NCBI GenBank assembly: GCA_045589175.1
Contig: JAZNFS010000033.1
Coordinates: forward strand, 90,734 to 154,733
Direction: 5' to 3'
Length of the DNA: 64,000 bases
DNA from: Christensenellaceae bacterium
Lineage (GTDB): Bacteria > Bacillota > Clostridia > Christensenellales > Borkfalkiaceae
Shown here: positions 6,801-64,000 of the stretch, one piece after another
How the letters are laid out: each line of letters starts with the position of its first letter
Position numbering within the stretch: position 1 is the first letter of the stretch
Program-made: the position numbers and the translations under genes
The notes under the pieces: generated by a model
What the model was told of the DNA's origin: nothing
What the model saw: only the letters and a program-made list of their open reading frames with translations
The model's database searches: none

Positions 6801-6966
6801 CAATCCTCTAAAAACCCCTATGTGAGGACACCGTTCATAGCGTGGCTTTTCGTTTTTTAATATAATTTTTTTCTGTGCTTTTTGTTTATATCAATCAAAA
6901 AAGCCTATCGTTTGATAGTCTTTTTTCTTATTATTTAGTTAGTTAATCAACTTATAGGGGCACTTT

Positions 6967-11636: not shown

Positions 11637-11959
11637 TTATATCAATTTATATAATTATATAATTATATTATATAATATAGTAGAAAATTTGTAAAGCAAA
11701 TTTTTCACTTTTATGTGGATAATCACAAAAAAATATATATTTTTTTGCAATTTTTGGCGCTAGTTATTAACAAATTTCCTTTTTGCGCGCTTTTTGAAAT
11801 TTAATTTGCTTATTTTTTTAGTTTTTTCATTTATTTTTATGTAGCGTATCGTTGACAAATAAGTAAATAATGCTATAATTAAAATGTAAACTGCTTACCT
11901 ATTTTTCATTATACTTGTTTTTTAAAAGCTGTTTGCCAAAAAACTGCGAGGTTGATTTT

Positions 11960-19686: not shown

Positions 19687-19719
19687 AAATTAAGTTATAA
19701 ATCACAAGAAATATAAAAC

Positions 19720-19762
19720 AAAAGTGCCGATAATTAAGCTATATCGGCACTTTTTTGTTTTT
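19720..19762. terminator. Bidirectional intrinsic terminator (patatin gene / miaA)
   Basis: Hairpin AAAGTGCCGATAATTAAGCTATATCGGCACTTTTTTG. Confidence 0.55.
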
Positions 19763-24768: not shown

Positions 24769-25386
24769 CTATTCTTCATCATCGGAGTTGTCGATATCGT
24801 CATCAAACTCTTCTATATCATCATCGAGGTCATCTTCGCAATCATCATCCGCATAATCGATATCTTCTTTCGTTTCATCTTCATCAATAGGATCTTCTTC
24901 ATAGTCTTCTATATCGTCATCCTCATCAATCGAATCTTCTTCATCATCTGGAGAGTCAAACGATAAAACCACGTCGTTTTGCTTTGGTTTTCTAAATACG
25001 ATAAAGGTATCGTAAAGATATTCGGTTGCAAAGTTTATAATCATATTCATAACAACAACCACAGTATCATTCCAACCTATTTGCACTAAAGCGTCGCCCC
25101 ACCAAGTTGAAAGTGGTGTAAATACTAAATAGTAGCAAGCAACCAAGAACATTGCAAACGGAACGTTAACCGCGCTTTTAAAGGTAAATTTACGGTTGAA
25201 AGTAAAATTCCATAAAACCGAAAGCGCAAGCGAAATTACGTAAACCCACCAGTAATATTGTTCTGGAGTAAACCAAATACCGCAAAGTAGTGCCAAAAGC
25301 TCGTAAGAAACTATTTGAATTACACCTGCCGAAATTGAAAATGCAGTAAATTTTAAAATTTGAATAAATCTTTCCTTCTTTGTCAC
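24769..25386 (-). CDS. GtrA-family membrane protein with a poly-acidic C-terminal tail
   Basis: Four-TM GtrA-like core. The last ~65 aa are nearly all D/E. Apparent GTG start at 25386 with an AAGGA RBS. Confidence 0.6.
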   Translation of the reverse strand: MTKKERFIQILKFTAFSISAGVIQIVSYELLALLCGIWFTPEQYYWWVYVISLALSVLWNFTFNRKFTFKSAVNVPFAMFLVACYYLVFTPLSTWWGDALVQIGWNDTVVVVMNMIINFATEYLYDTFIVFRKPKQNDVVLSFDSPDDEEDSIDEDDDIEDYEEDPIDEDETKEDIDYADDDCEDDLDDDIEEFDDDIDNSDDEE

Positions 25387-25426
25387 TTTTATTTCCTTTT
25401 AACAATAAAAATTGAAGATTTTTTAT

Positions 25427-25452
25427 TAAAAACCACGCTATAACGCGATTAA
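25427..25452 (-). promoter_or_regulatory. Copy A of the conserved upstream motif (TAAAAACCACGCTATAACGCGATTAA), 5' of the GtrA-like gene
   Basis: 26/26-nt identity with copies at 26122 and 28612. It lies ~40 nt upstream of the start codon. Confidence 0.55.
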
Positions 25453-25489
25453 AGGCGCTTTCATATCCTTTTAAAAGGATTTAAAAGTT

Positions 25490-26092
25490 TTATTTTAGTT
25501 TAAGCCACATAGCAGGACGCACTGCAACGTTATTACTATATGCAATATCACCACGAGTATCTATTATACCTTCACCGTCAACAAGCGCTTCACGACGTTC
25601 ACCCACGCCGGGCGAACGAAGCCACCAAAAACACGCTTTAGTAGCCGTATTTTGGTAAGCGTTATTTTTCATTGCGTACATAGTTGGCTCGCTTTGTTTG
25701 GATTTATCCGTAGGTAAATATTCTTTTGCTTCCTTTACGCTAAAAACAAATAATTTATCCTCAGTTGTAGTTATAAAACCTAATAACGACTTTTCTTCTT
25801 CAGTTTTAGTTGTTTCAATCATTTCTTTTTCTTCTTGAGTAAAGGCGTTATTATAAAATTCACCGTTTAGCCAAGCCCTTAAAGTGCATTTTTTCCAACT
25901 TGTTTTTTCATATTTTTCGTGGTAAGGCTTACAATCAATGCCGTATTTGCTAATAACAAGCACCATATTATCATCTTTTTTAACCAACAACCACTCGATA
26001 GGTTCTTTGATTTTAGGGTTAGACTTAGTATAATTACCAAACTCAATACTATCTCCTCTTTTCATTTTTGCAACTTCTTCTTTTTTTAACAT
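25490..26092 (-). CDS. DUF6273-like single-domain protein
   Basis: Motifs IEWLLV, SKYGIDCKPY, CTLRAWLNGEFYNNAF, WWLRSPG and VRPAMWL. ATG 26092 follows a GGGAGAA RBS. Confidence 0.55.
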   Translation of the reverse strand: MLKKEEVAKMKRGDSIEFGNYTKSNPKIKEPIEWLLVKKDDNMVLVISKYGIDCKPYHEKYEKTSWKKCTLRAWLNGEFYNNAFTQEEKEMIETTKTEEEKSLLGFITTTEDKLFVFSVKEAKEYLPTDKSKQSEPTMYAMKNNAYQNTATKACFWWLRSPGVGERREALVDGEGIIDTRGDIAYSNNVAVRPAMWLKLK

Positions 26093-26121
26093 TTTCACGT
26101 TCTCCCGAATTTGTTTTCATC

Positions 26122-26149
26122 TAAAACCACGCTATAACGCGATTAACAG
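26122..26149 (-). promoter_or_regulatory. Copy B of the conserved upstream motif (TAAAACCACGCTATAACGCGATTAACAG)
   Basis: Lies ~30 nt upstream of the 25490-26092 gene. Confidence 0.55.
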
Positions 26150-26195
26150 CGGTTTTGCGTTTCTTGTACTTGTCGTTTGTTTTTTATTAAGTATT

Positions 26196-28580
26196 TTAAT
26201 CTAACGTAACCCACATTGCTGGGCGCACACAACGATTCGTAAGATTCACATTTTTACCACTATCCTTAACTTTGCCATCCGAATTTACATAACCAACGAA
26301 ATTTTGATTACTACCTGGTGTTCTAATCCACCACATACAATTTTCACCATCCACATATGCACCATTTTCCCTTGCAAAGGCGGTAGGTTTACATGCCCTT
26401 TCTTCATCAACTTCAAAATGTTCTTTTGCCCCTTTGAGGCTTAATAAAAACATTTTATCGTTAGTTGAATTCCCTGGGTTTCTATTATATAAAGGGTTTT
26501 TGTCCGCGCTTACATGCATTAATTGAATTTTTAACTGTTCTTCACTGTTAAATGCACTGTTTAAAAACTCATTATTTAGCCATTTTCTTAAAGTACAACG
26601 CTCCCATGTTATATTAGTATCTTGAGAATTGTATGGCTTGCAGTCAAGAGCATATTTACTAATAAGTAACACCTTATCTTCTTGTTTTTCAAGAAGTAAC
26701 CACTCGATATCTTCTTTTATGCTAGCATCACTTTGTGGGTATTTACCAAACTTTATATAGCCACCAACTTTTGCATCGTTAAAAGGATTTAAAACCGCCT
26801 TTAAGTTTGTTTTTTCGGCTTCTTGCTTATCTTGTTTAGTCACAGCATCAAGTTCAATCCATATTACCGGACGCACAGCCATGTCAGTATTATTAACAAT
26901 GCTACCACCATTATGTATATGCCCATCACTATGGACATAACTTGCATTACTTTGAAAATGACCAGGAGTACAAAGCCACCAATTAACATTGTTTCTAAAA
27001 TCAACACTTAAGCCGTTTTGTTTTGCATAAGCAGTAGGCTTACATATTCTTAATGTATCGCTATTAAAATGCTTATTTACATCAGATATCGTTAATAAAT
27101 TTACTTTATCTTCTGTTGGTTTTCCAGCCTTTGTTCCATAAACAGGATTGCATCCTGCAGATATTAAAACTGTTGATATTTTAGTTTTCTCATCTACTGA
27201 AAAGGCATTATTAAAAAATTCATTATTTAGCCATTTTCTTAAACTGCAATTTGCCCAAGTGATATCTTCAAATTTATCATGATATTGCTTGCAATCAAGA
27301 GCATATTTACTAATCAGTAAAGCCCCGCTACCTTGTTTATCAAGAACTAACCACTCGATATCTTCTTTTGTGCTGGCATCACTTTGTGGGTATTTACCAA
27401 ACTTTATATAGTCACCCACTTTTACATTATTTAAAGCATGTTGCTTATTTTTGCTAACGCTTGGCGCTCTTCGTGACTTTTCACTTATTAATGAATCATT
27501 TTGTTCAAGCTCTTTTTTAAAACGCTTTTGCTCTTCAATTTGTTTTTGAGAATCAAAATCTTCTTCAAAACAATCGTCTGCGCACATATATTTCATAATG
27601 CGCGCTTTTACGCCATCAATATCGTAGCAATATTCAAGCCCTGCAAAAATTTCGTTAACGATACCGTCTGCCATACTCTTTGTATCGTCGAGCCTTAACT
27701 GAATACGCGGTTTTTTATACTTACAATTTATTTTATCATAAGAAAGATTAGGGAATTTATATCGCAAATTTTCTAAATCGCTCTTTTTTAAATATGGCAA
27801 TTCGTGCTTTATTGCGTCGCACTTAAAATTGCGCGAATTTTTTGAAGAGATAAATAAAAAGATTTTACTGTTATCAATAGCCTTTTCAAGCGCTTGTTGA
27901 TAGTTATTAACCGCGCCAACACCGTGCTGTAGGTTACGCATTGCAACAAAGCAAGTTAACCCTTCTTCTTCAAGGGCGGTTACAATTTGTTGAACTTTAC
28001 CCATGTCGGCGCTTGAATACGCCACGAATACGTCACGCGGTAAATTAAGCTCGTAAACGCCTTCTTCAACAAGTTCGGCTTGAGTAGCAAAAGCGGTTGT
28101 TAGGCGATTATAGGTTTGTAAATCACTACCCTTATACGCCCTTTCAATTAGGTTATTAACGCATAGCAAATATTCACTTTTTAGCGATTTAATTAAAAAG
28201 TTAACGATAGGCTCAATAACTTCGTAATGCTCTTTTACGTTTATGTTATCAATAAAATCAATTACCGCTTGTTCGTATTGACCACAAACAACTTCGTAAA
28301 AGTTTGCTAAAAAATCTTCGGGATAAATATTTTTAATATTTAAACATATAGAAACTATTTTTTCGCTATCAATAAATTTTGCAGTTGCTTCTTGCCATAA
28401 ATGACGGCGAAGCGAATTTAACTGCTCTTGCTTTTGTTTATCTAAAAAACTATCAAGAAGCTCTTGTTGTTTTTTTGCGGTAACTTGCGCATAGGTAGAG
28501 CCACAGTTTTCACACTTGCAAATTTCTTCACTTATAGGCTGTAGCGTTCCACCACAGTTTTTACAAAATAACTCTTGCAT
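26196..28580 (-). CDS. Multi-domain protein: N-terminal zinc ribbon, helical domain, TIR-like domain and three DUF6273-like repeats
   Basis: N-terminal CKNCGG..CKCENCGS. The TIR-like block reads DVFVAYSSADMGKVQQIVTALEEEGLTCFVA...KIFLFISSKNS. Three repeats each carry the EWLVL / SKYALDCK / CSLRKWLNNEF / WWL(C/R)TPG / VRP(V/A)(I/M)W motifs. Confidence 0.6.
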   Translation of the reverse strand: MQELFCKNCGGTLQPISEEICKCENCGSTYAQVTAKKQQELLDSFLDKQKQEQLNSLRRHLWQEATAKFIDSEKIVSICLNIKNIYPEDFLANFYEVVCGQYEQAVIDFIDNINVKEHYEVIEPIVNFLIKSLKSEYLLCVNNLIERAYKGSDLQTYNRLTTAFATQAELVEEGVYELNLPRDVFVAYSSADMGKVQQIVTALEEEGLTCFVAMRNLQHGVGAVNNYQQALEKAIDNSKIFLFISSKNSRNFKCDAIKHELPYLKKSDLENLRYKFPNLSYDKINCKYKKPRIQLRLDDTKSMADGIVNEIFAGLEYCYDIDGVKARIMKYMCADDCFEEDFDSQKQIEEQKRFKKELEQNDSLISEKSRRAPSVSKNKQHALNNVKVGDYIKFGKYPQSDASTKEDIEWLVLDKQGSGALLISKYALDCKQYHDKFEDITWANCSLRKWLNNEFFNNAFSVDEKTKISTVLISAGCNPVYGTKAGKPTEDKVNLLTISDVNKHFNSDTLRICKPTAYAKQNGLSVDFRNNVNWWLCTPGHFQSNASYVHSDGHIHNGGSIVNNTDMAVRPVIWIELDAVTKQDKQEAEKTNLKAVLNPFNDAKVGGYIKFGKYPQSDASIKEDIEWLLLEKQEDKVLLISKYALDCKPYNSQDTNITWERCTLRKWLNNEFLNSAFNSEEQLKIQLMHVSADKNPLYNRNPGNSTNDKMFLLSLKGAKEHFEVDEERACKPTAFARENGAYVDGENCMWWIRTPGSNQNFVGYVNSDGKVKDSGKNVNLTNRCVRPAMWVTLD

Positions 28581-28611
28581 AATTTATCTCCTTCGTTAAA
28601 ATATTTTCACT

Positions 28612-28640
28612 AAAAACCACGCTATAACGCGATTAACAGC
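28612..28640 (-). promoter_or_regulatory. Copy C of the conserved upstream motif (TAAAAACCACGCTATAACGCGATTAACAG)
   Basis: Lies ~30 nt upstream of the 794-aa gene start. Confidence 0.55.
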
Positions 28641-28700
28641 CCTTTGAATTATTTTTTTTATCTAAATTTATAAAACCTGCTATTAAGTTTTAACGTTGTA

Positions 28701-34296: not shown

Positions 34297-34649
34297 CGCT
34301 TTTCTTTTTATTATTTTCAACACAAAAGTGCCGTTAATTGCCTTATACGGGCACTTTTTAAAAAATTCTTATATCCTCGCTAACAATTTTTACTTTAATG
34401 AAAAATTAGATATCTTACTACTTTCGAACTTACCCATCAAAAATTATTGTTAGAAAAAAGAGCTTTTTTTATAACCAAAAATCGCGCAAAAAACCTTGAT
34501 AATCAACTTATTGGGACTTTTTTATTACTTTTATAGTCATTTTTCGATAATTTGTTGTTTTTTTGTTGACTTTTGAATAATATAGTTGTAAAATTAATTT
34601 ATAATTAATTGTGATATAATTATTCTTTCATATAAGGGAGGGGTTAGAA

Positions 34650-44869: not shown

Positions 44870-47800
44870 TTAGTAGTAAATAACTTCGATTGCTGTTATT
44901 CTAGCTTGACCGTTCGTTGCACTACCTGTATTGCCTACGCCAAAGGTTGTTGTTGTTGCATTAACTGTTACAACTGTTCCGCTAGTAATATTGCTACCAT
45001 TATGTGTTAAACAGCCACTGTTGTTTACTACATATGTAATTTTTACTGATTTAATAGTTTTACCATTAGCTGCACTTATTGTAAGTTCTGCAGATTCAGA
45101 TTGATATAAACGCCAGTTTGTGCCAGATGTATAGTATTTACCACTATTGCCGCCACCGTTTACTGTAACACTAATATTATTATCCATTGTCATGGTTGTA
45201 TATTGTGTACCATTCTCCCAACCATTTGCACTAGCATAATTAGCAATTGAAACAGTTATTTCTGTTTCTTGTACGCCAGCTTGCTTTCCACATACACAAC
45301 TACCACTTGATAAGTCGTGTTCTTCAGTTTCTAACGGAGCATTACAAATTGAACATGGCTTCCAGTGGTTACTATCATCAGAACCCCAAGTACTTGAAGC
45401 AACGCATTCATGTTTATCAATATCTAGTAATGTACAACCATTAAATTCAATAGTTGCATAATAGTTTAATATTTTACCAGTAGCAGTAATTGTATCGCCA
45501 ACAGAAACTCTATCAATACCATCACCAGCTAATTTATAACATTTAACTACATAATCACTATGATTTAAAATTTTAATATCAACAGTAATACTAGTTGCAT
45601 TTGGTGTATATGCATAGCTAATATTATCAACTACACCAACTAAAGTAACTTGATTAGGATAAGTTGTTGTATTATTATTTTTATCAGCAATTGCAAATAT
45701 GTCAGCTAACAAATCGCCAGTTGCTATAGTTTCTTTGTGTGATTCATCATTTCCACAAACACGAACGTGAGTGTCGTTTTCTGCAGGAGTCCATGCGCCA
45801 TATTTGTGACCTAAAGCAGGAGCTAAAACTTTTTCACATACTTCACATTTTTGAGCTGTTTCACAAGTAGCAGCCGCACCAGGAGTATGAGCTACCTTTT
45901 CATCTGCAAGATCACTACATACTGTACAAGCGTGCCAATGGTTGTCACCGTCTGATGACCAATCTTCTGAAGCGGTGTGACCAGTTTCAGGAACCTCATC
46001 TTTGTGTTTAGTTGATTGGCAACCTTCAAAGTTACAATGGTAAACAGTATAACCAGCTTCTGTACAAGTAGGAGCAACAGTTTCGCCCTTTACTGAGAAA
46101 TCACAAGTGTGTGATAATGCACGACAAGTTGTACATTTGTTATCTGCGCCGTAAACGTGAGCTTCTTTTTCAGTTGCAGGGTTACCGCAAGTTTCACATG
46201 CGTGCCAGTGACCTTCGCCATCGCTTGACCATTCAGCTGAAGCAACGTGATCAGCTAAAGGAAGTTCTTCTGTGCTAACTGTTTCGCCACAGTCATCACA
46301 AACAACAGTTATTGAGCCAGCTTCTGTGCAAGTAGCATCTTCTTGAGTTGTAGTAGTTTCAGCATGTGCACAAGGAATAACTTCGCCATAGAACTTACAA
46401 TAGAAACCTTCGTATGAAACTTTGCAAGGACCTACTGTTGTATACTTTTGATCGTTTCTTGTACCAAACCAGTAATCTTCATCATTAACTACAGCGATAA
46501 GAGTTTGCTTTTCTGAATCATATCTGTAAACAGTTGAAGCAGTTGCTTCGTAAGCACCATTTACATGCGTTCCGCTAACTACACAGTTAATATATAATTT
46601 TGATTCACCATTTAAAGTGTATAAGTAGTAACCACCTTCTGTAGCTTCAAGATATACGTCAATAGCTGCTTCTACGTTTTCAGTAGTAGCTAAATAGTAA
46701 CTATTCATACCACCAGCTAGGTAGTACATCTTGTCATCAAGATTGCCTTGAGCCATACCAAACTTGTATGCAGTTCCTACTACTGGAGCTTTAATTAAAC
46801 CAAATTCAGGAGCTTTATGCTCAAAAGCAATAATTGTTGCATTTTTGAATTGAATTGCATCGTTATAAGTGCTTAATTCACCATATAAGTAAACAATATC
46901 ACCAGCAACTGGTTTGAATGTCATATCAGCATAACCAACACCGCGTGGATCGTAAGAACCGTAAACAGTTACTTTTAATTGACGGTTTTCATCGGTTACA
47001 TACATGTTACCATATTGTGCATTGTAAACTTCGGTAACAGTAACTTTTGCAAAGAATTTGCCCGCTGGAACTTCTGTGAATGCAGCGATATCAGCAAGAT
47101 CTGTAGGTGCTGTAAATGAAACGATATCAGCATTCTTCATTTGAGCTGTACCGTTGTATTGACCCATAGGACCAACAACTTTTACGTAATCACCAACAAC
47201 TGGTTTGCTTTCCATTTCACCGTATTTCTTGCCGTTACCATCGTATAAACCGTAAATGTAAAGTTTATCGCCGTTGCCATCCATAATGTACATATTGCCG
47301 TATTGTGCACTTGCAATTTCAACAACAACACCTTCTGCGATGTATTTATCAGCAGTGTAAACGTTATGTGCTTGTGCAGAACCAATAGCATTAAGTTCTT
47401 TAATAGCTGTAGTAAATTTGTTTAATTCAACTTTAAATGATTTAGTTGCAGTTTCACCGTTTAAAGTAGCAGTTGCAACTAAAGTAACAGTTGTTTTTCC
47501 CTCAGGAAGAGTGAATGTTGCAGTACCTTCAGCGTTATCAATAACAACTGCATCTGATTCAGATGCCCAAGTAAATGTAACTTCTGGGAATAAAGAACCA
47601 ACCATTGTTAAGTTAACAACTTTATCACTATTTAAACTTTCAACACATTCAAGAGCTTCTAATTCGAAAGCAACTCTGCCTGCATCGTCTAATTCAGCAG
47701 CGGTAATGTAACGGAAGATAGTTGTAGAGAAGCCATCAACTGTGATAGTAGCTGTTAAGCAAGCTCTTTCCATATTGCCAGGGTTGATAACTAAGTTGCC

Positions 47801-49321
47801 TTGGTCAATAGCAAAAGATCTTGGTGTACCGATGATGCGGTAAGAAACTTCGCAACCTTCAAGTTCAGCAGGAAGATTTACGTTTTTAGCAAGTGCAACA
47901 ACTGCTGCATCTAAACCGTTTTCAGCAATAATAGCATCGATAGCAGCAACAGCCTTAGCAGCTGTTTTACCAGCGTAAACGGTGCCTTCTGGGTCAGCAG
48001 TGCCACCTTTAACAACTGCGCTTGCGCTTAATGGAGCGATTTGGTGACCTTTGTAGTTACCTAAAATACCTGTTACAGATACTACGTCGCCAACTTGTAA
48101 AGAGCTTTGTAAGCCGATAAGAGCTGAACAAGTAGCATCGCTTGTTTTATATGCGTATGCGCCTTCGTAATATTTTGAAATAACAACAGGAACGTCAACA
48201 CCGCCCTTTGTAAGAACGAATAAAGTTTGAGTTCCGCTTGATAAATCAGGAGTATCTTTAATTTCTTTTACAGTCCAGTTAGTAAGTGATACTAATCTTG
48301 ATTGATTGTAGTATGCAGATTGTAAGTTACCGATAATGTCGTTATCAACAGCGTAAACCTTTTCGCTTACGTTGATAGGAGCAACGTCGGTATCAACAAC
48401 TAAATTACCACCGGCGTTAGTTTCCATAAGGCCGTTGTAATCGGTGTTAATTGTTTCGGTAACGGTGATGTGAACGCCTGGTTGTAATAATGCTGCGTTT
48501 GCATCGTCTGTTTTAACGCGGTATAAGTAGTAACCAGCAGTGAAATCATCGTTAACCATATAAAGAGTTACGTTTTTGTATTCATCACTATATACTGTAC
48601 CGATTGTTACAACGTAACCACTCATAACGATACCTACACCGGTGTTAGTGTACCAATAGTCAACTTCTTGTAAAGGTTCTTTTTGTTCAGAAACAGTCAT
48701 TCTGTAGCTCTTGGTAGTGCTTACGCCGTTGTATGTGAAAGTAGCGTTAATTTTTACTTGTGGGTTAAGTGATGATGGGTAAACGTAGCAAGTTTTACCG
48801 TCTTCACTGATTTCAAGATAGTTTGCATATTCTTCGTCAACCGACCAAGCGATAGTAGCAGTGTGACCTTTAAATTCGCAAGAAGTATCAAGCGCGAAGT
48901 CTTCAACTACGGTGCCGTTGTTGTTAACAAAGTTGTAAGAACCACTAAAATCGTAAACGCTTAATGGATTAACGTAAACGGTAAAGGTTTTAGAAATTCT
49001 TTTAGATTTGAATAAAACTGTAAGGTCAACTTCCGTTCTTTCGGTAGGTAAACCAACTTTTGCAACGTATTGTCTTTCAATTCCATTTTCTTTGTCTGCT
49101 TCTACTTCTGTTAACGTAATTAAATCGCTATTAGAAGACCAGGTAGCTTTAAATTCGCCAATTGTGCCTGGAAGAACAAAGTCTTCTGAAATCGTTTGAC
49201 CATCTTTTTCAAAGATGTACATATCCAATGTTGCTTGAGGGTCTGTTTTGCTACAAGCTACTAAGCCGAAGCAAGAAAGAGCAAGAACAAGCGATAGGAT
49301 GACAAGTAGGGTTTTCTTCAT
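44870..49321 (-). CDS. 1483-aa surface lipoprotein with multiple OB-fold (nucleic-acid-binding-like) modules and Cys-rich HWHxCxxC repeats
   Basis: Lipobox LVAC. Repeated segments of the type AQYGNMY..DG....YG.Y...VGD.V.V.G....YN...Q.KNA resemble OB modules. SDGxxHWHACxxC occurs three times. Confidence 0.55.
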   Translation of the reverse strand: MKKTLLVILSLVLALSCFGLVACSKTDPQATLDMYIFEKDGQTISEDFVLPGTIGEFKATWSSNSDLITLTEVEADKENGIERQYVAKVGLPTERTEVDLTVLFKSKRISKTFTVYVNPLSVYDFSGSYNFVNNNGTVVEDFALDTSCEFKGHTATIAWSVDEEYANYLEISEDGKTCYVYPSSLNPQVKINATFTYNGVSTTKSYRMTVSEQKEPLQEVDYWYTNTGVGIVMSGYVVTIGTVYSDEYKNVTLYMVNDDFTAGYYLYRVKTDDANAALLQPGVHITVTETINTDYNGLMETNAGGNLVVDTDVAPINVSEKVYAVDNDIIGNLQSAYYNQSRLVSLTNWTVKEIKDTPDLSSGTQTLFVLTKGGVDVPVVISKYYEGAYAYKTSDATCSALIGLQSSLQVGDVVSVTGILGNYKGHQIAPLSASAVVKGGTADPEGTVYAGKTAAKAVAAIDAIIAENGLDAAVVALAKNVNLPAELEGCEVSYRIIGTPRSFAIDQGNLVINPGNMERACLTATITVDGFSTTIFRYITAAELDDAGRVAFELEALECVESLNSDKVVNLTMVGSLFPEVTFTWASESDAVVIDNAEGTATFTLPEGKTTVTLVATATLNGETATKSFKVELNKFTTAIKELNAIGSAQAHNVYTADKYIAEGVVVEIASAQYGNMYIMDGNGDKLYIYGLYDGNGKKYGEMESKPVVGDYVKVVGPMGQYNGTAQMKNADIVSFTAPTDLADIAAFTEVPAGKFFAKVTVTEVYNAQYGNMYVTDENRQLKVTVYGSYDPRGVGYADMTFKPVAGDIVYLYGELSTYNDAIQFKNATIIAFEHKAPEFGLIKAPVVGTAYKFGMAQGNLDDKMYYLAGGMNSYYLATTENVEAAIDVYLEATEGGYYLYTLNGESKLYINCVVSGTHVNGAYEATASTVYRYDSEKQTLIAVVNDEDYWFGTRNDQKYTTVGPCKVSYEGFYCKFYGEVIPCAHAETTTTQEDATCTEAGSITVVCDDCGETVSTEELPLADHVASAEWSSDGEGHWHACETCGNPATEKEAHVYGADNKCTTCRALSHTCDFSVKGETVAPTCTEAGYTVYHCNFEGCQSTKHKDEVPETGHTASEDWSSDGDNHWHACTVCSDLADEKVAHTPGAAATCETAQKCEVCEKVLAPALGHKYGAWTPAENDTHVRVCGNDESHKETIATGDLLADIFAIADKNNNTTTYPNQVTLVGVVDNISYAYTPNATSITVDIKILNHSDYVVKCYKLAGDGIDRVSVGDTITATGKILNYYATIEFNGCTLLDIDKHECVASSTWGSDDSNHWKPCSICNAPLETEEHDLSSGSCVCGKQAGVQETEITVSIANYASANGWENGTQYTTMTMDNNISVTVNGGGNSGKYYTSGTNWRLYQSESAELTISAANGKTIKSVKITYVVNNSGCLTHNGSNITSGTVVTVNATTTTFGVGNTGSATNGQARITAIEVIYY

Positions 49322-56896: not shown

Positions 56897-57805
56897 AACT
56901 TTATACTCCTTTACGATAATCGCTACTATATCATTAAAGTTTCGCTTTAGTTTAATATTTATTTTTTTTAGCCCTATTTTTGTTTAATCTTTGTTTTTAA
57001 ATGCGGGTTCAACACCGTTTCTCTTGTTTTTATTGTGTTTTTCGCGCACGCGCGCACCTATGCGAGTCAAAATTATAACATATTCAAACACATATCTGTC
57101 TAAAAAGATTATTTTTCCTCAAGGTTTTAAAAGCAACTGTGTTCATATGCTTTGAGAAAGCCAATTACACAATTTTTTTACAAAAATCAACGCTTTTTGT
57201 ACGGACTTAAAAATCTTAACCTTAGCATGCGCAATTCTGAAGTTTATACAAGCAACAAAACATTTTTTTTTGCGCTTTTGATCGTTGAAACGATAATGTG
57301 CCAAGTTTATCTTATTCTCAGTTTTACCTTTGGTAACAACTCTTTTTTTAAAGAATAAAAAATTTTTGTGTGTTTTTTTTAAAAAACCAAATCTTGCGTT
57401 TTTATTATATCACAAAAATCGACAAAACGCCACTATTTTACTACCCTTTATTAATAATTAATAAAATTATTTTCTTACTTGATTTTTTATGCCAAAAATT
57501 ATAAATAAAATTGCCGAATTTTTGTGGTTTTTTACTAACTTTTCTAAAAAATAAGGTGTTTTTTCAATTTCCAAACAAAACTAAAGTTGTAAGCGACAAA
57601 CTTTTAATTGTATCTTCAAATAAACCCACGACTTCGCTTAAAAAACGTAACAAAAATAGCGAGCTTTAACGAGATAAAATTTTTTAAAAAACACGGGGAA
57701 TTTTAATATAAAAGTGACGTTTATCAACTTATAGGCTTACTTTTTTGTAATTTATAATCCTTAAAAAACGCTTAAAAATAATCCGATATTTTTTTAAGAA
57801 AGTTA

Positions 57806-57845
57806 AAAAACCAAAAAGTTGTAGCACACAAAAGTATACTACAAC
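57806..57845 (-). terminator. Intrinsic terminator after the M20 peptidase gene
   Basis: AGTTGTAG...CTACAACT hairpin plus a T-run. Confidence 0.5.
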
Positions 57846-57851
57846 TTTTAA

Positions 57852-59236: not shown

Positions 59237-59932
59237 ATGCACGAAGGACATAGAGAACGCCTCATTTCTAAACTGCTTGAAGGAAATACTATACTTTCAG
59301 ATCACGAAATTTTAGAAATTTTGCTATTTTATTCAATACCACGCAAAAATACTAACGAACAAGCACATTTAATACTTGACAATTTTGGTTCATTAAAAGC
59401 TTGTTTTAGCGCAGACCATTCTGCACTTATGGCAATCGAGGGTATAGGGCACAAAACTGCTTCTTTCATCGTCACATTAGGCGAAATTTTCCGTAGGATG
59501 GAAGAAGACAAACATCAACTTCCAATAATTTTTAGTTACGACGGTTGTAAAAAAATTTTAATTGATAGTTTTAAGCACTTAAGTGAAGAAAAATTCGTTG
59601 CTCTTTTCTTAAACAAGTCGGGTGAAATTATTCTAAGAAAGATTTTCTCTTCTCATTCTGATAATATGGTTAATATTGATATAAGCGATCTTTTAAAGGG
59701 CGTTTTGATTAAAAAGCCAAAAAGCGTAGTAATTTGTCATAACCATTTATCGGGAATTAACCAACCTTCATTTTGTGACGATAATGCAACGGCAAAAATT
59801 CATCTTGCGCTTAAGCTTAATAATATTACCCTAAGCGATCATATTATCGTTGCCGGTAATAAAACTTTTAGTTACAGGGCAAGCGATCGACTTACAACAA
59901 TTATTAATAACATTAAAGAATTTTTATATTAA
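59237..59932 (+). CDS. radC: RadC-like JAB/MPN domain protein
   Basis: JAMM motif HNHLSG plus an N-terminal HhH-like segment. Confidence 0.75.
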   Translation: MHEGHRERLISKLLEGNTILSDHEILEILLFYSIPRKNTNEQAHLILDNFGSLKACFSADHSALMAIEGIGHKTASFIVTLGEIFRRMEEDKHQLPIIFSYDGCKKILIDSFKHLSEEKFVALFLNKSGEIILRKIFSSHSDNMVNIDISDLLKGVLIKKPKSVVICHNHLSGINQPSFCDDNATAKIHLALKLNNITLSDHIIVAGNKTFSYRASDRLTTIINNIKEFLY

Positions 59933-60086
59933 TTTGAAAAAATTGGTTTTATAAAAATATTGTGAAACACTTATTAACGAAATTATAGGCTTATTTTTAG
60001 CTGTGAAACATAATTTAACGACTAAAAAACGACCTTTAAAAATTTAAATAAATTATACGGCGCATTTTTTGCGACGGGAGGATAAA

Positions 60087-61526
60087 ATGGAAAAAATTAG
60101 AACGAGATTTGCCCCCAGTCCAACGGGATTTATGCATTTGGGTGGCTTACGTACGGCACTTTATTGTTATCTTTACTCAAAAAAGCACGGCGGTGACTTT
60201 ATTTTAAGAATTGAAGATACCGACCAAGAACGTTTTGTTGAAGGCGCTGTCGAGGTTATTTATTCTTCACTAAACGAGTCGAGTATTCATTACGACGAAG
60301 GTCCCGATAAAGGCGGTGAGTTCGGCCCATACGTACAAAGCGAAAGAAGAGCTATTTATCTAGAATACGCTAAAAAATTAGTTGAATTAGGCGGTGCTTA
60401 TTACTGTTTCTGCACTAAAGAACGCCTTGAAAGCTTAACCGATGAAAATGGCAATAGAAAATATGACAAACATTGCTTAAAACTATCAAAAGAAGAGGTT
60501 GAAACGCGAATTGCTGCAGGCGAACCTTACGTTATCCGTCAAAATATTCCAACGGAAGGCACTTCTGTTTACGAAGATATGGTTTTTGGAACGATCTCAG
60601 TTGATTATGCCGACCTTGAAGACAACATTCTTATTAAAAGCGATGGGTTACCAACCTATAACTTCGCCAACGTCGTTGACGACCACCTAATGAAGATTTC
60701 ACACGTTATTCGTGGTACTGAATATTTATCTTCTACACCAAAATACAACTTGATGTATGATACTTTTGGTTGGGAACGCCCACACTATATACACTTACCT
60801 ATTATAATGAAAGATCAAACCCGTAAACTTTCAAAGCGTTACGGCGATGCAAACTTCGATGATTTTGTAAATAAAGGATATTTACCAGAAGCAATCGTTA
60901 ACTACGTTGCACTTTTAGGCTGGTCACCAAAGGAAAACGTTGAAAAAATGAGCATGGCTCAAATGATTGACTTGTTTTCATTAGACGGCGTATCAAAAAG
61001 TCCATCTATTTTTGACGACGTTAAACTTCGTTGGTTAAACGGCGAATATTTAAAAGAGTTATCAGACGAAGAATTTTTAAAGGTCGCAACTCCTTTCTTT
61101 AAACAATCAAAAGTTTATGGAAAGTACGATTTGTTACAACTTTCTGCGCTTTTAAAAACAAGAATTGAAATTTTAAGCGAAATTCCAGATAAAATTAATT
61201 TCTTAGAAGAGTTTGGCGAATACGACACTGCTCTTTTCTTCCACAAGAAGATGAAAACTGATGCTGAACTAGCTAAAACCGTACTGCCTTGGATTCGCGA
61301 AAAACTTGAAAGCGCCCCATCTTTCGACCACGACACCATTCACGATTTATTAATCGGCTTAGCAACCGAAAAAGAAATGAAAAACGGTCAAATTTTATGG
61401 CCTGCACGAGTTGCTTTATCGGGTAAAGACGTTACCCCCGGTGGTGCTATCGAATTAGCACTTATTTTAGGTAAAGAAGAATGCTTACGCAGAATAGATT
61501 TCTCGCTTGAACTTTTAAATAAATAA
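60087..61526 (+). CDS. gltX: Glutamate--tRNA ligase
   Basis: ATG 60087 follows a GGGAGGA RBS. HIGH-region HLGGLRTA and KLSKR motifs. Confidence 0.95.
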   Translation: MEKIRTRFAPSPTGFMHLGGLRTALYCYLYSKKHGGDFILRIEDTDQERFVEGAVEVIYSSLNESSIHYDEGPDKGGEFGPYVQSERRAIYLEYAKKLVELGGAYYCFCTKERLESLTDENGNRKYDKHCLKLSKEEVETRIAAGEPYVIRQNIPTEGTSVYEDMVFGTISVDYADLEDNILIKSDGLPTYNFANVVDDHLMKISHVIRGTEYLSSTPKYNLMYDTFGWERPHYIHLPIIMKDQTRKLSKRYGDANFDDFVNKGYLPEAIVNYVALLGWSPKENVEKMSMAQMIDLFSLDGVSKSPSIFDDVKLRWLNGEYLKELSDEEFLKVATPFFKQSKVYGKYDLLQLSALLKTRIEILSEIPDKINFLEEFGEYDTALFFHKKMKTDAELAKTVLPWIREKLESAPSFDHDTIHDLLIGLATEKEMKNGQILWPARVALSGKDVTPGGAIELALILGKEECLRRIDFSLELLNK

Positions 61527-61546
61527 TTTTAACTAACAAATTTTTA

Positions 61547-61582
61547 CCCTCTAATTGCTCGTCGCGATTAGAGGGTTTTTTT
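61547..61582 (+). terminator. Intrinsic terminator after gltX
   Basis: CCCTCTAAT...ATTAGAGGG followed by a T7 run. Confidence 0.65.
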
Positions 61583-61920
61583 GTGAAACATTTTTATAAA
61601 ATTCAAGTTAATGAATATATAGGCCTGTTTTTTGTGAAATATTTTTTAATACAAGAAGTTAAAAACTTGCTTGCAAGGGTTTTAAACTTCGCAGGATTAT
61701 ACACTTGAAGTTTAAAAACATGAGTTTTTAAAGCAAAACCCACAGTTTTTGCAAAGATTTTGCCAGTGGCAAAAGATTTAACTTCTTATCGTTTTTAATA
61801 TTTACTTAAAAAAATAAAACATTTATAGTAATTTTTATTTTTTTCTTTTTTATAATTTTTTCGTATTTTACTATTTTTTAAGTTTTTTGATAAAAATTAA
61901 GATATAAAAATACATAAAAG

Positions 61921-62532
61921 TTAGCCTATAAGTCGATTATTGGCACTTTCAAGCATACTTTTTATATCTTCGTTTGAGAGTGTGTCTTTTTGCTTTTTAT
62001 TACTATATCTCTCTTTTATAAACACTTCAATCCCTTTTGCAACGTTCGTTGCCATTTTGTATATACTAGAAAGGCGGATATCTGTTAAAAAACCTCTTTT
62101 AAAGTCAGCTTTTTCTCCAACAACCCCTATAATCGACAAGTCCCCCACCATTGGCAAATCTTTGTCCACTCCAAGCCCTGGTTTTAAGCCCGTTTTTTGA
62201 ACCTTTACCCTTCCAACGTCCCATTTTTTACCCACAGCGGCATCGACAACCACTACAGTACTATCAGGATGAGCTTTTTTTATATATTGTGCTATAAACG
62301 GTACTTCTTTTGCCGTTATCGGATGAGTTAAGTTGCCGTAAGTAAATATATTCCCCACGTTAAGGTTGATTAAAGTTGCACTTAGCGGAGCTAAAGAGTC
62401 ACCTATATTACTGTCTGTACCGATGAAAACGAACACAAGGTTTTCACTTTTATAATCAACGTATTTTTCAAGCGCTTTTGCAATTGACAAATATAAATAT
62501 TTATCTTCAATATAAAAATTTAACTCTTTCAT
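61921..62532 (-). CDS. yyaC: Spore protease YyaC-like protein
   Basis: IGTDSNIGDSLAPL motif. An alternative TTG start lies at 62550. Confidence 0.55.
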   Translation of the reverse strand: MKELNFYIEDKYLYLSIAKALEKYVDYKSENLVFVFIGTDSNIGDSLAPLSATLINLNVGNIFTYGNLTHPITAKEVPFIAQYIKKAHPDSTVVVVDAAVGKKWDVGRVKVQKTGLKPGLGVDKDLPMVGDLSIIGVVGEKADFKRGFLTDIRLSSIYKMATNVAKGIEVFIKERYSNKKQKDTLSNEDIKSMLESANNRLIG

Positions 62533-62674
62533 ACAGTTAATTTTAACCAAATATGTCTTTTTTAATCATTTTTAATTGCAAATTGAATATTTTAGTGATA
62601 TAATGATAAAGAAGGTAATAAAATAAACAAGGTTTAGTTTATTATTTTAAATTTAATACAAAAGGAGATTTGAT

Positions 62675-63406
62675 ATGAACACATTAATGGGTAACGTAGG
62701 CTTAATTGTCGATCTCGTTTGTCTTGCTTTAATTTTAGCATTTGTCATCACTGGGCTAATTCGAGGCTTTTTCAAGCGAGTTTTTAAAATTGCCGTTACG
62801 ATTGGCGCACTTTTAATCGCATATTTCTTTTGCGATAACCTAGTAAACTTACTAGAAGATCAATTTCAATTACTAACTAAACTCACCGATAAAATTGTAG
62901 GACTAGATTTATTTAAAATCCCTGCAGACGTTATCAAAGGTAGCTTAAGCGAAAGCATAAAAGCCGCCGTTGAATCAATGGGATTACCACAATTTATTGC
63001 TGAAGCAGCACAAAGTTCTGCGGCATCACTTGAAACAAGTATTGGAAACTCAATTGAAGGCATTACCCTTCATATTTCAACAGTTCTTTCAAGATATATT
63101 TTAATAGGCGCAAGCTTTGTTGCATTACATATAGTTTCAAAATTAATTTTATCAGTAGTCGCTATTATTTTAACAAAAATTATTGAATTACCAATCATAA
63201 ACGGTGTTGATAAACTTTTAGGCGCTATAATGGGTTTAATTAAAGGATTTTTAGTTTTAACTGTTGTGATTTACTTAATCAGCGTTATTCCTGGCGGAAT
63301 TTTTGAAGACTTAAGACAAATGCTTTCAACAGCAACATTTGGCGGATTCTTGCAAGAACACAACCTATTCGAAGCTATTATTTCAGCCGTAGTTGCAAGA
63401 TTTTAA
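62675..63406 (+). CDS. cvpA: CvpA-family membrane protein
   Basis: Four TM helices with a typical CvpA N-terminus. Confidence 0.65.
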   Translation: MNTLMGNVGLIVDLVCLALILAFVITGLIRGFFKRVFKIAVTIGALLIAYFFCDNLVNLLEDQFQLLTKLTDKIVGLDLFKIPADVIKGSLSESIKAAVESMGLPQFIAEAAQSSAASLETSIGNSIEGITLHISTVLSRYILIGASFVALHIVSKLILSVVAIILTKIIELPIINGVDKLLGAIMGLIKGFLVLTVVIYLISVIPGGIFEDLRQMLSTATFGGFLQEHNLFEAIISAVVARF

Positions 63407-63423
63407 AACATTTTAAAGTTTAA

Positions 63424-63453
63424 AAACGAGCATATCTTTGCTCGTTTTTTTGT
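63424..63453 (+). terminator. Intrinsic terminator after the cvpA-like gene
   Basis: AAACGAGCATATCTTTGCTCGTTT followed by a T-run. Confidence 0.55.
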
Positions 63454-64000
63454 TTGTAAAAAACGAATTTTTCAGCTAAAAATAATTGTTTAACAGTGTT
63501 TCATACTTGTTTTGTGAGCGTTTTTTGCTCATTTTTTACAGTTTTTAGTTGTTTTACTAGTCTAACAATAATTGTTTGATATTAATTTTGTGTTTTTCTT
63601 CGTGAAACACTATTGTTTCACATTTTTAGCTATTAGAATTAATCGGCTAAAGAAAAATATATTGTTTTTCTATAAATAAAAAATCAAAAATTCGGCATAA
63701 AATCTACAATTTTAAAACTTTAAAACTTTTTATTAATTAATAGGAATATTTAAAATGTTTCACGAGAAACAATTTTTTATCGCTTATCAAGTTTCACGTG
63801 AAACACGCAAATTTTTAAAAATTTATTCTAATCAAAAATCATAGTTATTAATGAACGTAACCCCATTATTTTTATGATTGTTGATTAGATATTTTTAAAT
63901 AAAAGCGCGACCATTTTTAAATATCATTTAGCAATAAAAGTTTATGTTGCTTTAACGATTGAATTAAAAAACAACCTTTTAAAAAAAATATTAAATAAAT

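What the first reader, a model, noticed from the sequence alone, without database searches (positions are those of the whole stretch)
59956..63805. Recurrent TGTGAAACA composite motif in the last 4 kb of intergenic regions
TGTGAAACA(C/T) or its reverse complement occurs at about 59960, 60001, 61582, 61633 (TGTGAAATA), 63497, 63601, 63614, 63757 and 63791. The last of these is the perfect 14-nt palindrome GTTTCACGTGAAAC. Two ~60-nt segments are clearly homologous: 59959-60010 and 61581-61642, of the form TGTGAAACA-N15-27-ATAGGCYTRTTTTT-TGTGAAAYAT. A third related copy reads ATAGGAATATTTAAAATGTTTCAC at 63740. All copies are intergenic. This looks like the operator set of an unidentified dimeric regulator or a small interspersed repeat.
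Basis: seen in the sequence. Interest (0 to 1): 0.5.

Follow-up and report, generated by a model that had tools for sequence, protein, structure and literature searches.

The report
Chromosome centromere (parS) sites with half-sites
The recurring TGTGAAACA motif is the arm of the bacterial chromosome-segregation site parS: two full parS palindromes sit at the window's end, next to where relatives encode ParA and ParB, and several conserved single-arm copies lie nearby, so this is an ordinary centromere region with a moderately unusual set of half-sites.

Summary
GTGAAACA occurs 7 times in the 1.3 kb of intergenic DNA between 59.9 and 64 kb, against 0.04 expected. It occurs once in the other 60 kb.

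The interpretation needs replacing. The 16-mers at 63756-63771 (TGTTTCACGAGAAACA) and 63790-63805 (AGTTTCACGTGAAACA) each differ by one base from the parS consensus TGTTNCACGTGAAACA. In the relatives that keep this gene order (L001, L009, L010, L014), the same cvpA-ftsH spacer carries one or two parS sites, followed by ftsH-parA-parB. The region is origin-proximal.

The other copies are single parS arms ("half-parS"). They are fully conserved in the closest relative, and half-sites recur beside parS in five other genomes. ParB binding to such heptamers is documented in Pseudomonas aeruginosa and some other species, but not for Bacillus subtilis Spo0J.

The two "homologous 60-nt segments" are tandem [half-parS + element] units duplicated on both sides of gltX.

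CRP/FNR/Rex operators, DnaA boxes and promoters are not supported. Verdict: known kind (parS), new member; the role of the half-sites is inferred.

The parts
63756..63771 (.). parS-1, TGTTTCACGAGAAACA (1 mismatch to TGTTTCACGTGAAACA)
   Evidence: Identical in L001 and conserved at the aligned position in L009 and L010.
63790..63805 (.). parS-2, AGTTTCACGTGAAACA (1 mismatch). It contains the perfect 14-nt palindrome.
   Evidence: Identical in L001 and present in L009 as AGTTTCACGTGGAACA.
63601..63622 (.). Everted pair of half-parS arms, CGTGAAACA-CTAT-TGTTTCACA. It can also form an 8-bp hairpin followed by a T run.
   Evidence: -6.8 kcal/mol, z -5.3; terminator-like. Conserved in L001 and L009.
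63497..63505 (-). Weak half-site-like TGTTTCATA (1 mismatch)
   Evidence: Not conserved at the aligned position in L001.
59961..59969 (+). Half-parS TGTGAAACA, first unit upstream of gltX
   Evidence: CGTGAAACA in L001, L009 and L011 at the equivalent place.
59974..59999 (+).
   Evidence: 5 mismatches to the core; nhmmer E 0.078.
60002..60010 (+). Half-parS TGTGAAACA, second unit upstream of gltX, 41 bp after the first
   Evidence: D18. Conserved in L001 and L009.
61546..61581 (+). Intrinsic terminator of gltX (13-bp stem plus T run), immediately before the next half-site
61582..61590 (+). Half-parS TGTGAAACA downstream of gltX
   Evidence: Identical in L001.
61608..61632 (+). Decayed box A element (TTAATGAATATATAGGC + CTGTTTTT)
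   Evidence: (E 0.14).
61633..61641 (+). Variant half-site TGTGAAATA, 51 bp after the previous one
   Evidence: D5, D16. Identical in L001.
61912..61953 (-). Canonical box A element (TTGAAAGTGCCAATAATCGACTTATAGGCTAACTTTT) overlapping the yyaC stop codon
   Evidence: E 2.6e-10. Same place in L001, L004 and L009.
59237..59932 (+). radC-family gene
60087..61526 (+). gltX, glutamate-tRNA ligase, bracketed by the two composite units
61921..62532 (-). yyaC-type spore protease (DUF1256)
62675..63406 (+). CvpA/Colicin_V family membrane protein. The spacer after it carries the parS sites.

Best explanation
The last 4 kb of the window is the chromosomal centromere region of an uncultured spore-forming Clostridia bacterium.

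The two 16-bp palindromes at 63756-63771 and 63790-63805 are parS sites. ParB (Spo0J) dimers would load there with their helix-turn-helix domains. They would then close as CTP-dependent clamps and slide over several kb of neighbouring DNA, building the partition complex that ParA and SMC act on. This mechanism follows from established knowledge of ParABS and was not shown here.

The remaining TGTGAAACA/CGTGAAACA copies are single arms of parS (half-parS) and lie inside that expected ParB zone. I infer that they are low-affinity ParB contact points that help retain or bridge ParB within the complex, as reported for Pseudomonas aeruginosa.

The 'composite' form is a by-product. Around gltX each half-site sits next to a decayed copy of an unrelated dispersed gene-end element (box A, core ATAATCGACTTATAGGC). 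This [half-site + box A] unit is tandemly repeated and duplicated on both sides of gltX.

Shown: the sequence match, the local enrichment, conservation in relatives, and the neighbouring parA-parB in relatives. Inferred: ParB binding, and any role for the half-sites.
For: - parS match. Only two sites in 64 kb lie within 3 mismatches of the palindrome, and both have 1 mismatch. The consensus TGTTNCACGTGAAACA is taken from the review PMC7022226.
- Synteny. L001, L009, L010 and L014 share radC-gltX-yyaC-cvpA-[0.8 to 2.5 kb spacer]-ftsH-parA-parB. L001 ParB carries ParB_N and HTH_ParB, and its best solved relatives are the H. pylori Spo0J-parS complex 4UMK and B. subtilis Spo0J 6SDK.
- parS recurs. 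One or two parS sites lie in the spacer after cvpA in L001, L009, L010, L014 and L017.
- Origin-proximal setting. The window holds metG-tatD-rsmA, yabP, tilS-hprT and gyrBA. In L010, L011 and L012, dnaA or dnaN-rpmH-rnpA-yidC-jag lie within 10 kb.
- Half-sites are local. GTGAAACA occurs 7 times against 0.04 expected in the local intergenic DNA, and once in the other 60 kb.
- Half-sites are conserved. All 9 sites are conserved in L001, against 9% of background 8-mers. Half-sites accompany parS in the same spacer in L001, L009, L010, L014 and L017.
- gltX link. No half-sites flank gltX in the two loci where it sits in another gene context with no parS site in the locus (L013, L016).
- Shared flank. 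The half-site flank AAAATGTTTCAC is the same as the outer flank of parS-1 (I22).
- Literature. ParB binds GTTCCAC/GTTTCAC half-parS in P. aeruginosa and several other species, and 39 such motifs lie in its oriC-spanning peak. V. cholerae ParB2 needs a half-site in the ori2 39-mer.
Against: - The window ends before any parA or parB, so the cognate protein is seen only in relatives.
- Half-site binding is not universal. Per the review, B. subtilis Spo0J showed no half-site binding in its re-analysis of ChIP-seq data.
- L011 keeps three half-sites upstream of gltX, yet has no parS within its 21 kb.
- L010 and L014 have parS near gltX but no half-sites flanking gltX. L017 has none downstream of gltX, and its contig holds too little upstream DNA to tell.
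- In several units the half-site occupies exactly the position where generic box A copies read TTGAAAG. It could therefore be a variant flank of that element.
- The everted pair at 63601-63622 has the wrong geometry for one ParB dimer and also scores as a terminator hairpin.
Confidence: 0.6

Rival explanations
1. Only the two palindromes are ParB sites. The single GTGAAACA copies are parts of a local composite repeat, built from variant flanks of the dispersed box A gene-end element plus a terminator hairpin. They were kept or duplicated for reasons unrelated to ParB, and their identity to a parS arm is coincidental.
For: - The half-site aligns in register with the TTGAAAG flank of generic box A copies.
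- The [B-A] units are tandem and duplicated on both sides of gltX.
- L011 has three units and no parS nearby.
- In L001 the first half-site pairs with GTGTTTT after box A.
- The everted pair is terminator-like.
Against: - Half-sites also occur without box A, right beside parS, in six genomes.
- About 45 generic box A copies elsewhere carry TnAAA rather than GTGAAAC; only gltX-flanking copies carry GTGAAAC.
- An exact 8-nt identity to the parS arm, repeated 5 or more times within 4 kb of the only parS sites in 64 kb, is very unlikely by chance.
- No structural covariation supports a hairpin role.
Confidence: 0.25
2. One reading: the sites are the operator set of a CRP/FNR- or Rex-like dimeric transcription regulator that controls gltX, yyaC, cvpA and their neighbours.
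For: TTGTGAA resembles a Rex half-site and TGTGA a CRP half-site. All sites are intergenic.
Against: - No site forms a Rex or CRP palindrome. Matches to those consensus patterns are at chance level (12 against 8.3, and 11 against 19.7).
- The real palindromes have CACGTG at the centre, which is parS geometry.
- Two sites lie between the convergent genes gltX and yyaC, after a terminator.
- The distance from the half-sites to the gltX start is not conserved: 77 nt in the window and about 245 nt in L009 and L011.
Confidence: 0.05
3. The sites are DnaA boxes of a replication origin or DnaA-titration cluster. TGTTTCACA is one mismatch from the relaxed box TTWTNCACA.
For: The setting is origin-proximal, and there is an AT-rich non-coding spacer after cvpA.
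Against: - In this lineage canonical TTATCCACA boxes cluster next to dnaN: L010 2679-3006, L012 16749-16993, L013 13543-13828.
- No DnaA box with 1 mismatch or fewer lies in 63407-64000.
- Relatives read CGTGAAACA, which breaks the CACA end of a DnaA box.
Confidence: 0.02

Closest known systems
Chromosomal parS/ParB (Spo0J) centromeres of Firmicutes and most bacteria (consensus TGTTNCACGTGAAACA)
   Same: 16-bp palindrome with 15 of 16 positions matching, origin-proximal, close to parA-parB in relatives, canonical ParB with ParB_N and HTH_ParB domains, and conserved across species.
   Different: The sites lie as a close pair, 34 bp start to start, in a long gene-free AT-rich spacer upstream of ftsH-parA-parB. 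In B. subtilis, by my recollection, they lie inside genes such as spo0J. Binding was not tested here.
Half-parS heptamers (GTTCCAC/GTTTCAC) bound by P. aeruginosa ParB (PMC5961200, PMC10419367; review PMC7022226)
   Same: The motif is identical (GTTTCAC = GTGAAAC). The single arms lie in the same origin-proximal zone as the full parS sites.
   Different: In Pseudomonas there are hundreds of sites scattered genome-wide, mostly inside genes, and only 15% are intergenic. Here there are a few copies, all intergenic, clustered within 4 kb of parS, positionally conserved, extended to 8 or 9 nt (YGTGAAACA), and partly arranged as direct pairs 41 and 51 bp apart. Firmicute ParB has not been shown to bind half-sites.
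V. cholerae ParB2 half-site in the ori2 39-mer (PMC3688505)
   Same: It is a functional single parS arm outside a centromere.
   Different: It is a different ParB/parS family (parS2) with a role in replication control. Nothing comparable is indicated here.
REP/BIME-type dispersed intergenic elements (for the box A part)
   Same: It is short (about 40 nt), partly palindromic (GCCnATAA-TCGAC-TTATnGGC) and present in many copies at gene 3' ends on either strand. It sometimes occurs in tandem or as a mosaic with another motif, and its orientation flips between relatives.
   Different: No stable conserved hairpin or covariation was found. The sequence is conserved across genomes of 35 to 45% GC. 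No associated transposase is known, and there is no Rfam or literature match.

Membership tests
Chromosomal parS (ParABS centromere) | 16-bp inverted repeat matching TGTTNCACGTGAAACA | tested here: met
   63756-63771 and 63790-63805 have 1 mismatch each. No other site in 64 kb has 3 mismatches or fewer.
Chromosomal parS (ParABS centromere) | A cognate ParB with HTH_ParB, plus ParA, is encoded in the genome, usually nearby | tested here: inconclusive
   None in the window, which ends 195 nt after parS-2. The syntenic relatives L001, L009, L010 and L014 encode ftsH-parA-parB directly downstream of the spacer. L001 ParB matches 4UMK and 6SDK.
Chromosomal parS (ParABS centromere) | Origin-proximal location | tested here: met
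   The window has origin-region gene content. In L010, L011 and L012 the same radC-gltX block lies within 10 kb of dnaA or dnaN and DnaA-box clusters. No dnaA lies in the window itself.
Chromosomal parS (ParABS centromere) | Conservation of the site at the orthologous position in related genomes | tested here: met
   L001 is identical. L009, L010, L014 and L017 keep 1 or 2 parS sites in the spacer after cvpA.
Chromosomal parS (ParABS centromere) | Specific, CTP-dependent ParB binding and spreading | not testable with these tools
   Needs ChIP-seq or in-vitro binding.
Half-parS sites (ParB single-arm binding) | Heptamer identical to one parS arm (GTTTCAC/GTTCCAC) | tested here: met
   Six isolated GTGAAAC(A) copies plus one GTGAAAT variant.
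Half-parS sites (ParB single-arm binding) | ParB occupancy at the isolated arm | not testable with these tools
   Only the literature precedent exists, and that is for other species. B. subtilis Spo0J was negative in the review's re-analysis of ChIP-seq data.
CRP/FNR or Rex operators | Palindrome TGTGA-N6-TCACA, or TTGTGAA-N4-TTCACAA | tested here: not met
   Matches are at or below chance, and none of the motif sites forms such a palindrome.
DnaA boxes / oriC | Cluster of TTATCCACA-type 9-mers | tested here: not met
   No box with 1 mismatch or fewer lies in 63407-64000. Canonical clusters lie next to dnaN in relatives.
REP-like hairpin elements (box A part) | Conserved imperfect palindrome that forms a stable stem-loop | tested here: inconclusive
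   The core is partly palindromic and one copy folds (z -1.96), but others do not. RNAalifold gives no consensus structure, and the pair counts equal the shuffled controls.

The most novel reading that the evidence does not exclude
The conserved half-parS arms are functional accessory centromere elements of a Clostridia lineage. They lie in phased direct pairs (41 and 51 bp apart) embedded in tandem units with a lineage-specific gene-end element on both sides of gltX, and as everted pairs beside the full parS sites. They would anchor, bridge or bound the sliding ParB clamps and so shape the partition complex. Such an organised and positionally conserved use of half-sites has not been described for Firmicutes.
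Probability: 0.2. Interest if true: 0.55.

Novelty: new member of a known kind. Interest (0 to 1): 0.3.

Why it matters
- It locates the chromosomal centromere, and by implication the origin-proximal domain, of an uncultured gut Clostridia lineage known only from metagenome assemblies.
- It gives a small, well-defined natural test case for whether a Firmicute-type ParB uses isolated parS arms. That question is open outside Pseudomonas.
- It shows that what looked like a regulator's operator set is chromosome-segregation DNA.
- As a by-product it exposes an undescribed, abundant gene-end sequence element in this lineage, about one copy per 4 to 5 kb.

Tried and rejected
- Rfam. Four searches found no family: the whole window, four relatives, and two permissive regional scans.
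- tRNA/tmRNA. None.
- Sigma-70 promoters. Promoter-like matches are at chance level (18 against 16.7). The half-sites do not sit at a fixed distance from gltX. By eye I found no fit to sigma D, E, F, G, H or K consensus sequences recalled from memory.
- Small ORF. The 41-aa GTG ORF starting in the half-site at 61583 is not conserved; L001 reaches a stop after 8 codons.
- DnaA boxes and Rex/CRP palindromes. Rejected.
- Box A as a conserved RNA or DNA hairpin. No support from RNAalifold or pair counts.
- Box A as a phage element. One exact hit in 2.9 million viral contigs.
- Literature string search for box A. Nothing.
- Extending the window's own contig. The exact-protein look-up failed.
- Genome and metagenome scans with CvpA. 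They gave one useful locus and only short contigs. Relatives were reached through GltX homologues instead.
- An 896-aa ORF in L001 that I suspected to be gyrA. It is not.
Full report
**1. Observation**

- TGTGAAACA is at 59961, 60002 and 61582 (+) and at 63614 (-).
- CGTGAAACA is at 63601 (+), 63756 (-) and 63797 (+).
- TGTGAAATA is at 61633.
- The perfect palindrome GTTTCACGTGAAAC is at 63791-63804.
- The copy listed at 63497 is only TGTTTCATA.

All copies lie between genes. These are radC (59237-59932), gltX (60087-61526), a yyaC-type spore protease (61921-62532, minus strand) and a CvpA-family gene (62675-63406).

The 8-mer GTGAAACA occurs 7 times in the 1284 nt of intergenic DNA after 59933. 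Dinucleotide shuffles give 0.04 on average and never more than 1. It occurs once, inside a gene, in the other 59.9 kb. None of the roughly 6.6 kb of intergenic DNA elsewhere in the window carries YGTGAAAYA. The motif is therefore a local cluster, not a general promoter or operator word of this genome.

**2. What the palindromes are**

Searching the window for TGTTTCACGTGAAACA with up to 3 mismatches returns exactly two sites, each with one mismatch:
- 63756-63771, TGTTTCACGAGAAACA
- 63790-63805, AGTTTCACGTGAAACA

This is the chromosomal parS consensus TGTTNCACGTGAAACA, as tabulated in the review PMC7022226.

The window stops 195 nt after the second site and holds no parA or parB. Relatives supply the missing context. 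I reached them through a CvpA scan (L001, a sheep-rectum Clostridia MAG with 85% CvpA identity) and through GltX homologues (loci).

L001, L009, L010 and L014 share the order radC-gltX-yyaC-cvpA-[0.8 to 2.5 kb gene-free spacer]-ftsH-parA-parB. L001's proteins carry the ParA domains and ParB_N plus HTH_ParB. Its ParB is closest to the H. pylori Spo0J-parS complex 4UMK and to B. subtilis Spo0J 6SDK.

| Locus | Full parS in the spacer after cvpA |
|---|---|
| L001 | both sites, identical to the window |
| L009 | TGTTTCACGTGGAGCA, AGTTTCACGTGGAACA |
| L010 | TGTTTAACGTGAAACA, TGTTTCACGTGAAACG |
| L014 | TGTTTCACGTGAAATA, TGTTTCACGTGAAACT |
| L017 | GGTTTCACGTGAAACA |

The region is origin-proximal. 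The window has metG-tatD-rsmA, yabP, tilS-hprT and gyrB-gyrA. In L010, L011 and L012 the same radC-gltX block lies within 10 kb of dnaA or of dnaN-rpmH-rnpA-yidC-jag.

**3. The single copies**

Every other copy is one arm of parS.

Between the window and L001, all 9 arms (counting those inside the palindromes) are fully conserved. Only 9% of other intergenic 8-mers in the same alignments are.

In the cvpA-ftsH spacer, isolated arms accompany the full sites in every genome that keeps the spacer:
- an everted pair, GTGAAACA-N4-TGTTTCAC, in the window, L001 and L009 (with a 6-nt spacer in L009)
- two direct TGTTTCACAAAAA copies 19 bp apart in L010
- two arms in L014
- four in L017, two of them an overlapping everted pair

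Around gltX the arms form direct pairs, 41 bp apart upstream and 51 bp apart downstream. The pairs are kept in L001 and L009. L011 has three copies upstream of gltX.

No arms flank gltX in L013 and L016, where gltX sits in a different gene context and the locus holds no parS site.

Binding of ParB to exactly these heptamers (GTTCCAC/GTTTCAC) is documented for P. aeruginosa and several other species. In P. aeruginosa, 39 such motifs lie inside the oriC-spanning ParB peak. B. subtilis Spo0J showed no such binding in the review's re-analysis of ChIP-seq data. A functional half-site is also known for V. cholerae ParB2.

**4. The 'composite' part**

It is a decayed copy of a dispersed element I call box A. 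Its consensus is roughly tTGAAAgtGCCG-ATAATCGACTTATAG-GCtaACTTTTT.

An nhmmer profile built from 29 copies returns 50 matches at E up to 1 (about 40 at E below 0.01) in the 170 kb examined: window 16, L001 7, L009 10, L010 5, L011 6, L012 6. The copies are mostly at gene 3' ends and occur on either strand.

Orthologous positions are conserved: after the M20 peptidase, overlapping the yyaC stop codon, in the parA-parB spacer, and after parB. The orientation in the parA-parB spacer flips between L001/L010 and L009.

The two '60-nt homologous segments' are tandem [half-parS + box A] units duplicated on both sides of gltX (families D5 and D18). L011 has three such units in a row.

The box A core is partly palindromic. 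I found no consistent hairpin and no covariation. There is no Rfam match, no literature string match, and only one exact copy in the viral collection. Its function is unknown.

**5. Mechanism**

Established ParABS biology gives the most likely working. ParB dimers load at the two palindromes, close as CTP-dependent clamps, and slide over neighbouring DNA. ParA and SMC act on that complex. The window's 59.9-63.8 kb cluster lies within the few kb over which ParB normally spreads.

I infer that the isolated arms are weak ParB contact points that help retain or bridge ParB there.

Four points count against this reading of the single arms:
- The negative Bacillus precedent.
- L011, which keeps three arms but has no parS within its 21 kb.
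- In some units the arm sits in register with the TTGAAAG flank of generic box A copies.
- The everted pair also scores as a terminator-like hairpin.

I give about 0.9 to the parS assignment and about 0.5 to ParB use of the half-sites. That is 0.6 for the explanation as a whole.

**6. Rivals**

- CRP/FNR/Rex operators. Consensus palindromes are at chance level and none involves the motif sites. Two sites lie after the gltX terminator between convergent genes. The distance to the gltX start is not conserved.
- DnaA boxes. This lineage uses canonical TTATCCACA clusters next to dnaN, and relatives read CGTGAAACA.
- Sigma-70 promoters. Not above chance.
- A purely repeat-based origin for the single arms remains possible (0.25).

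**7. Novelty and score**

parS next to parAB is textbook. This is a new member in an uncultured Clostridia lineage. The organised, conserved half-sites and the undescribed box A element add modest interest. Interest is 0.3.

Noticed in passing
window 61912-61953(-), 57709-57748(+), 34322-34361(+), 34487-34524(+), 6942-6971(+), 25425-25463(-), 26123-26159(-), 28610-28647(-), 19719-19757(+); also many copies in L001, L009, L010, L011, L012, L014: A dispersed element of about 40 nt (box A, core ATAATCGACTTATAGGC with an A run before and a T run after). It occurs about once per 4 to 5 kb, mostly at gene 3' ends on either strand. It is conserved across genomes of 35 to 45% GC, and its orientation flips at orthologous positions. 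It has stop codons in all three forward frames. No Rfam or literature match, no hairpin covariation. Function unknown.
   Followed up: partly
window 61653-61788: A segment of about 135 nt bounded by 11-bp inverted repeats (AAGAAGTTAAA...TTTAACTTCTT). It folds well (-34.4 kcal/mol, z -2.9) and is absent from the orthologous gltX-yyaC spacer of L001. It could be a MITE-like insertion or a small RNA gene.
   Followed up: partly
window 63407-64000; L001 10736-11544; L009 13543-15457; L010 13111-15675; L014 12835-13645: The spacer between cvpA and ftsH is gene-free and AT-rich, and its length varies widely among close relatives (0.8 to 2.5 kb). Apart from the parS sites, the half-sites, a few short conserved islands (for example TTAATCGG..AAAGAAAA and AAAATCCCGCATAAAATCTA) and a conserved ftsH promoter, nothing in it was identified. 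No Rfam hit.
   Followed up: partly
window 24769-28580 (three minus-strand genes): Three consecutive genes, one of them DUF6273 and one a 794-aa protein with no family match. Each is preceded by a nearly identical box A variant, TTAATCGCGTTATAGCGTGGTTTT, about 40 nt before the start codon.
   Followed up: no
window 56988-57851: An 864-nt stretch without an ORF of 80 aa or more, between a 114-aa ORF and the 3' end of the M20 dipeptidase gene. It contains a box A copy. No Rfam or tRNA hit.
   Followed up: no
window 44870-49321 (-): A 1484-aa ORF that I did not annotate. It holds the only GTGAAACA outside the cluster. The local sequence shows repeated TGTGAA (Cys-Glu) codon pairs, which suggests a Cys-rich repeat protein.
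   Followed up: no
window 11714-11722 (-): A single perfect DnaA box, TTATCCACA, in the 308-nt spacer upstream of gyrB. dnaA, dnaN and recF are not adjacent to gyrB here, unlike the usual Firmicute order.
   Followed up: no
L012 8204-8219: A parS-like 16-mer, TGTTTCACGGGAAACG (2 mismatches), inside the M20 peptidase gene of a more distant relative. There the radC-gltX block lies next to jag-yidC-rnpA-dnaN instead of cvpA-ftsH-parAB.
   Followed up: no
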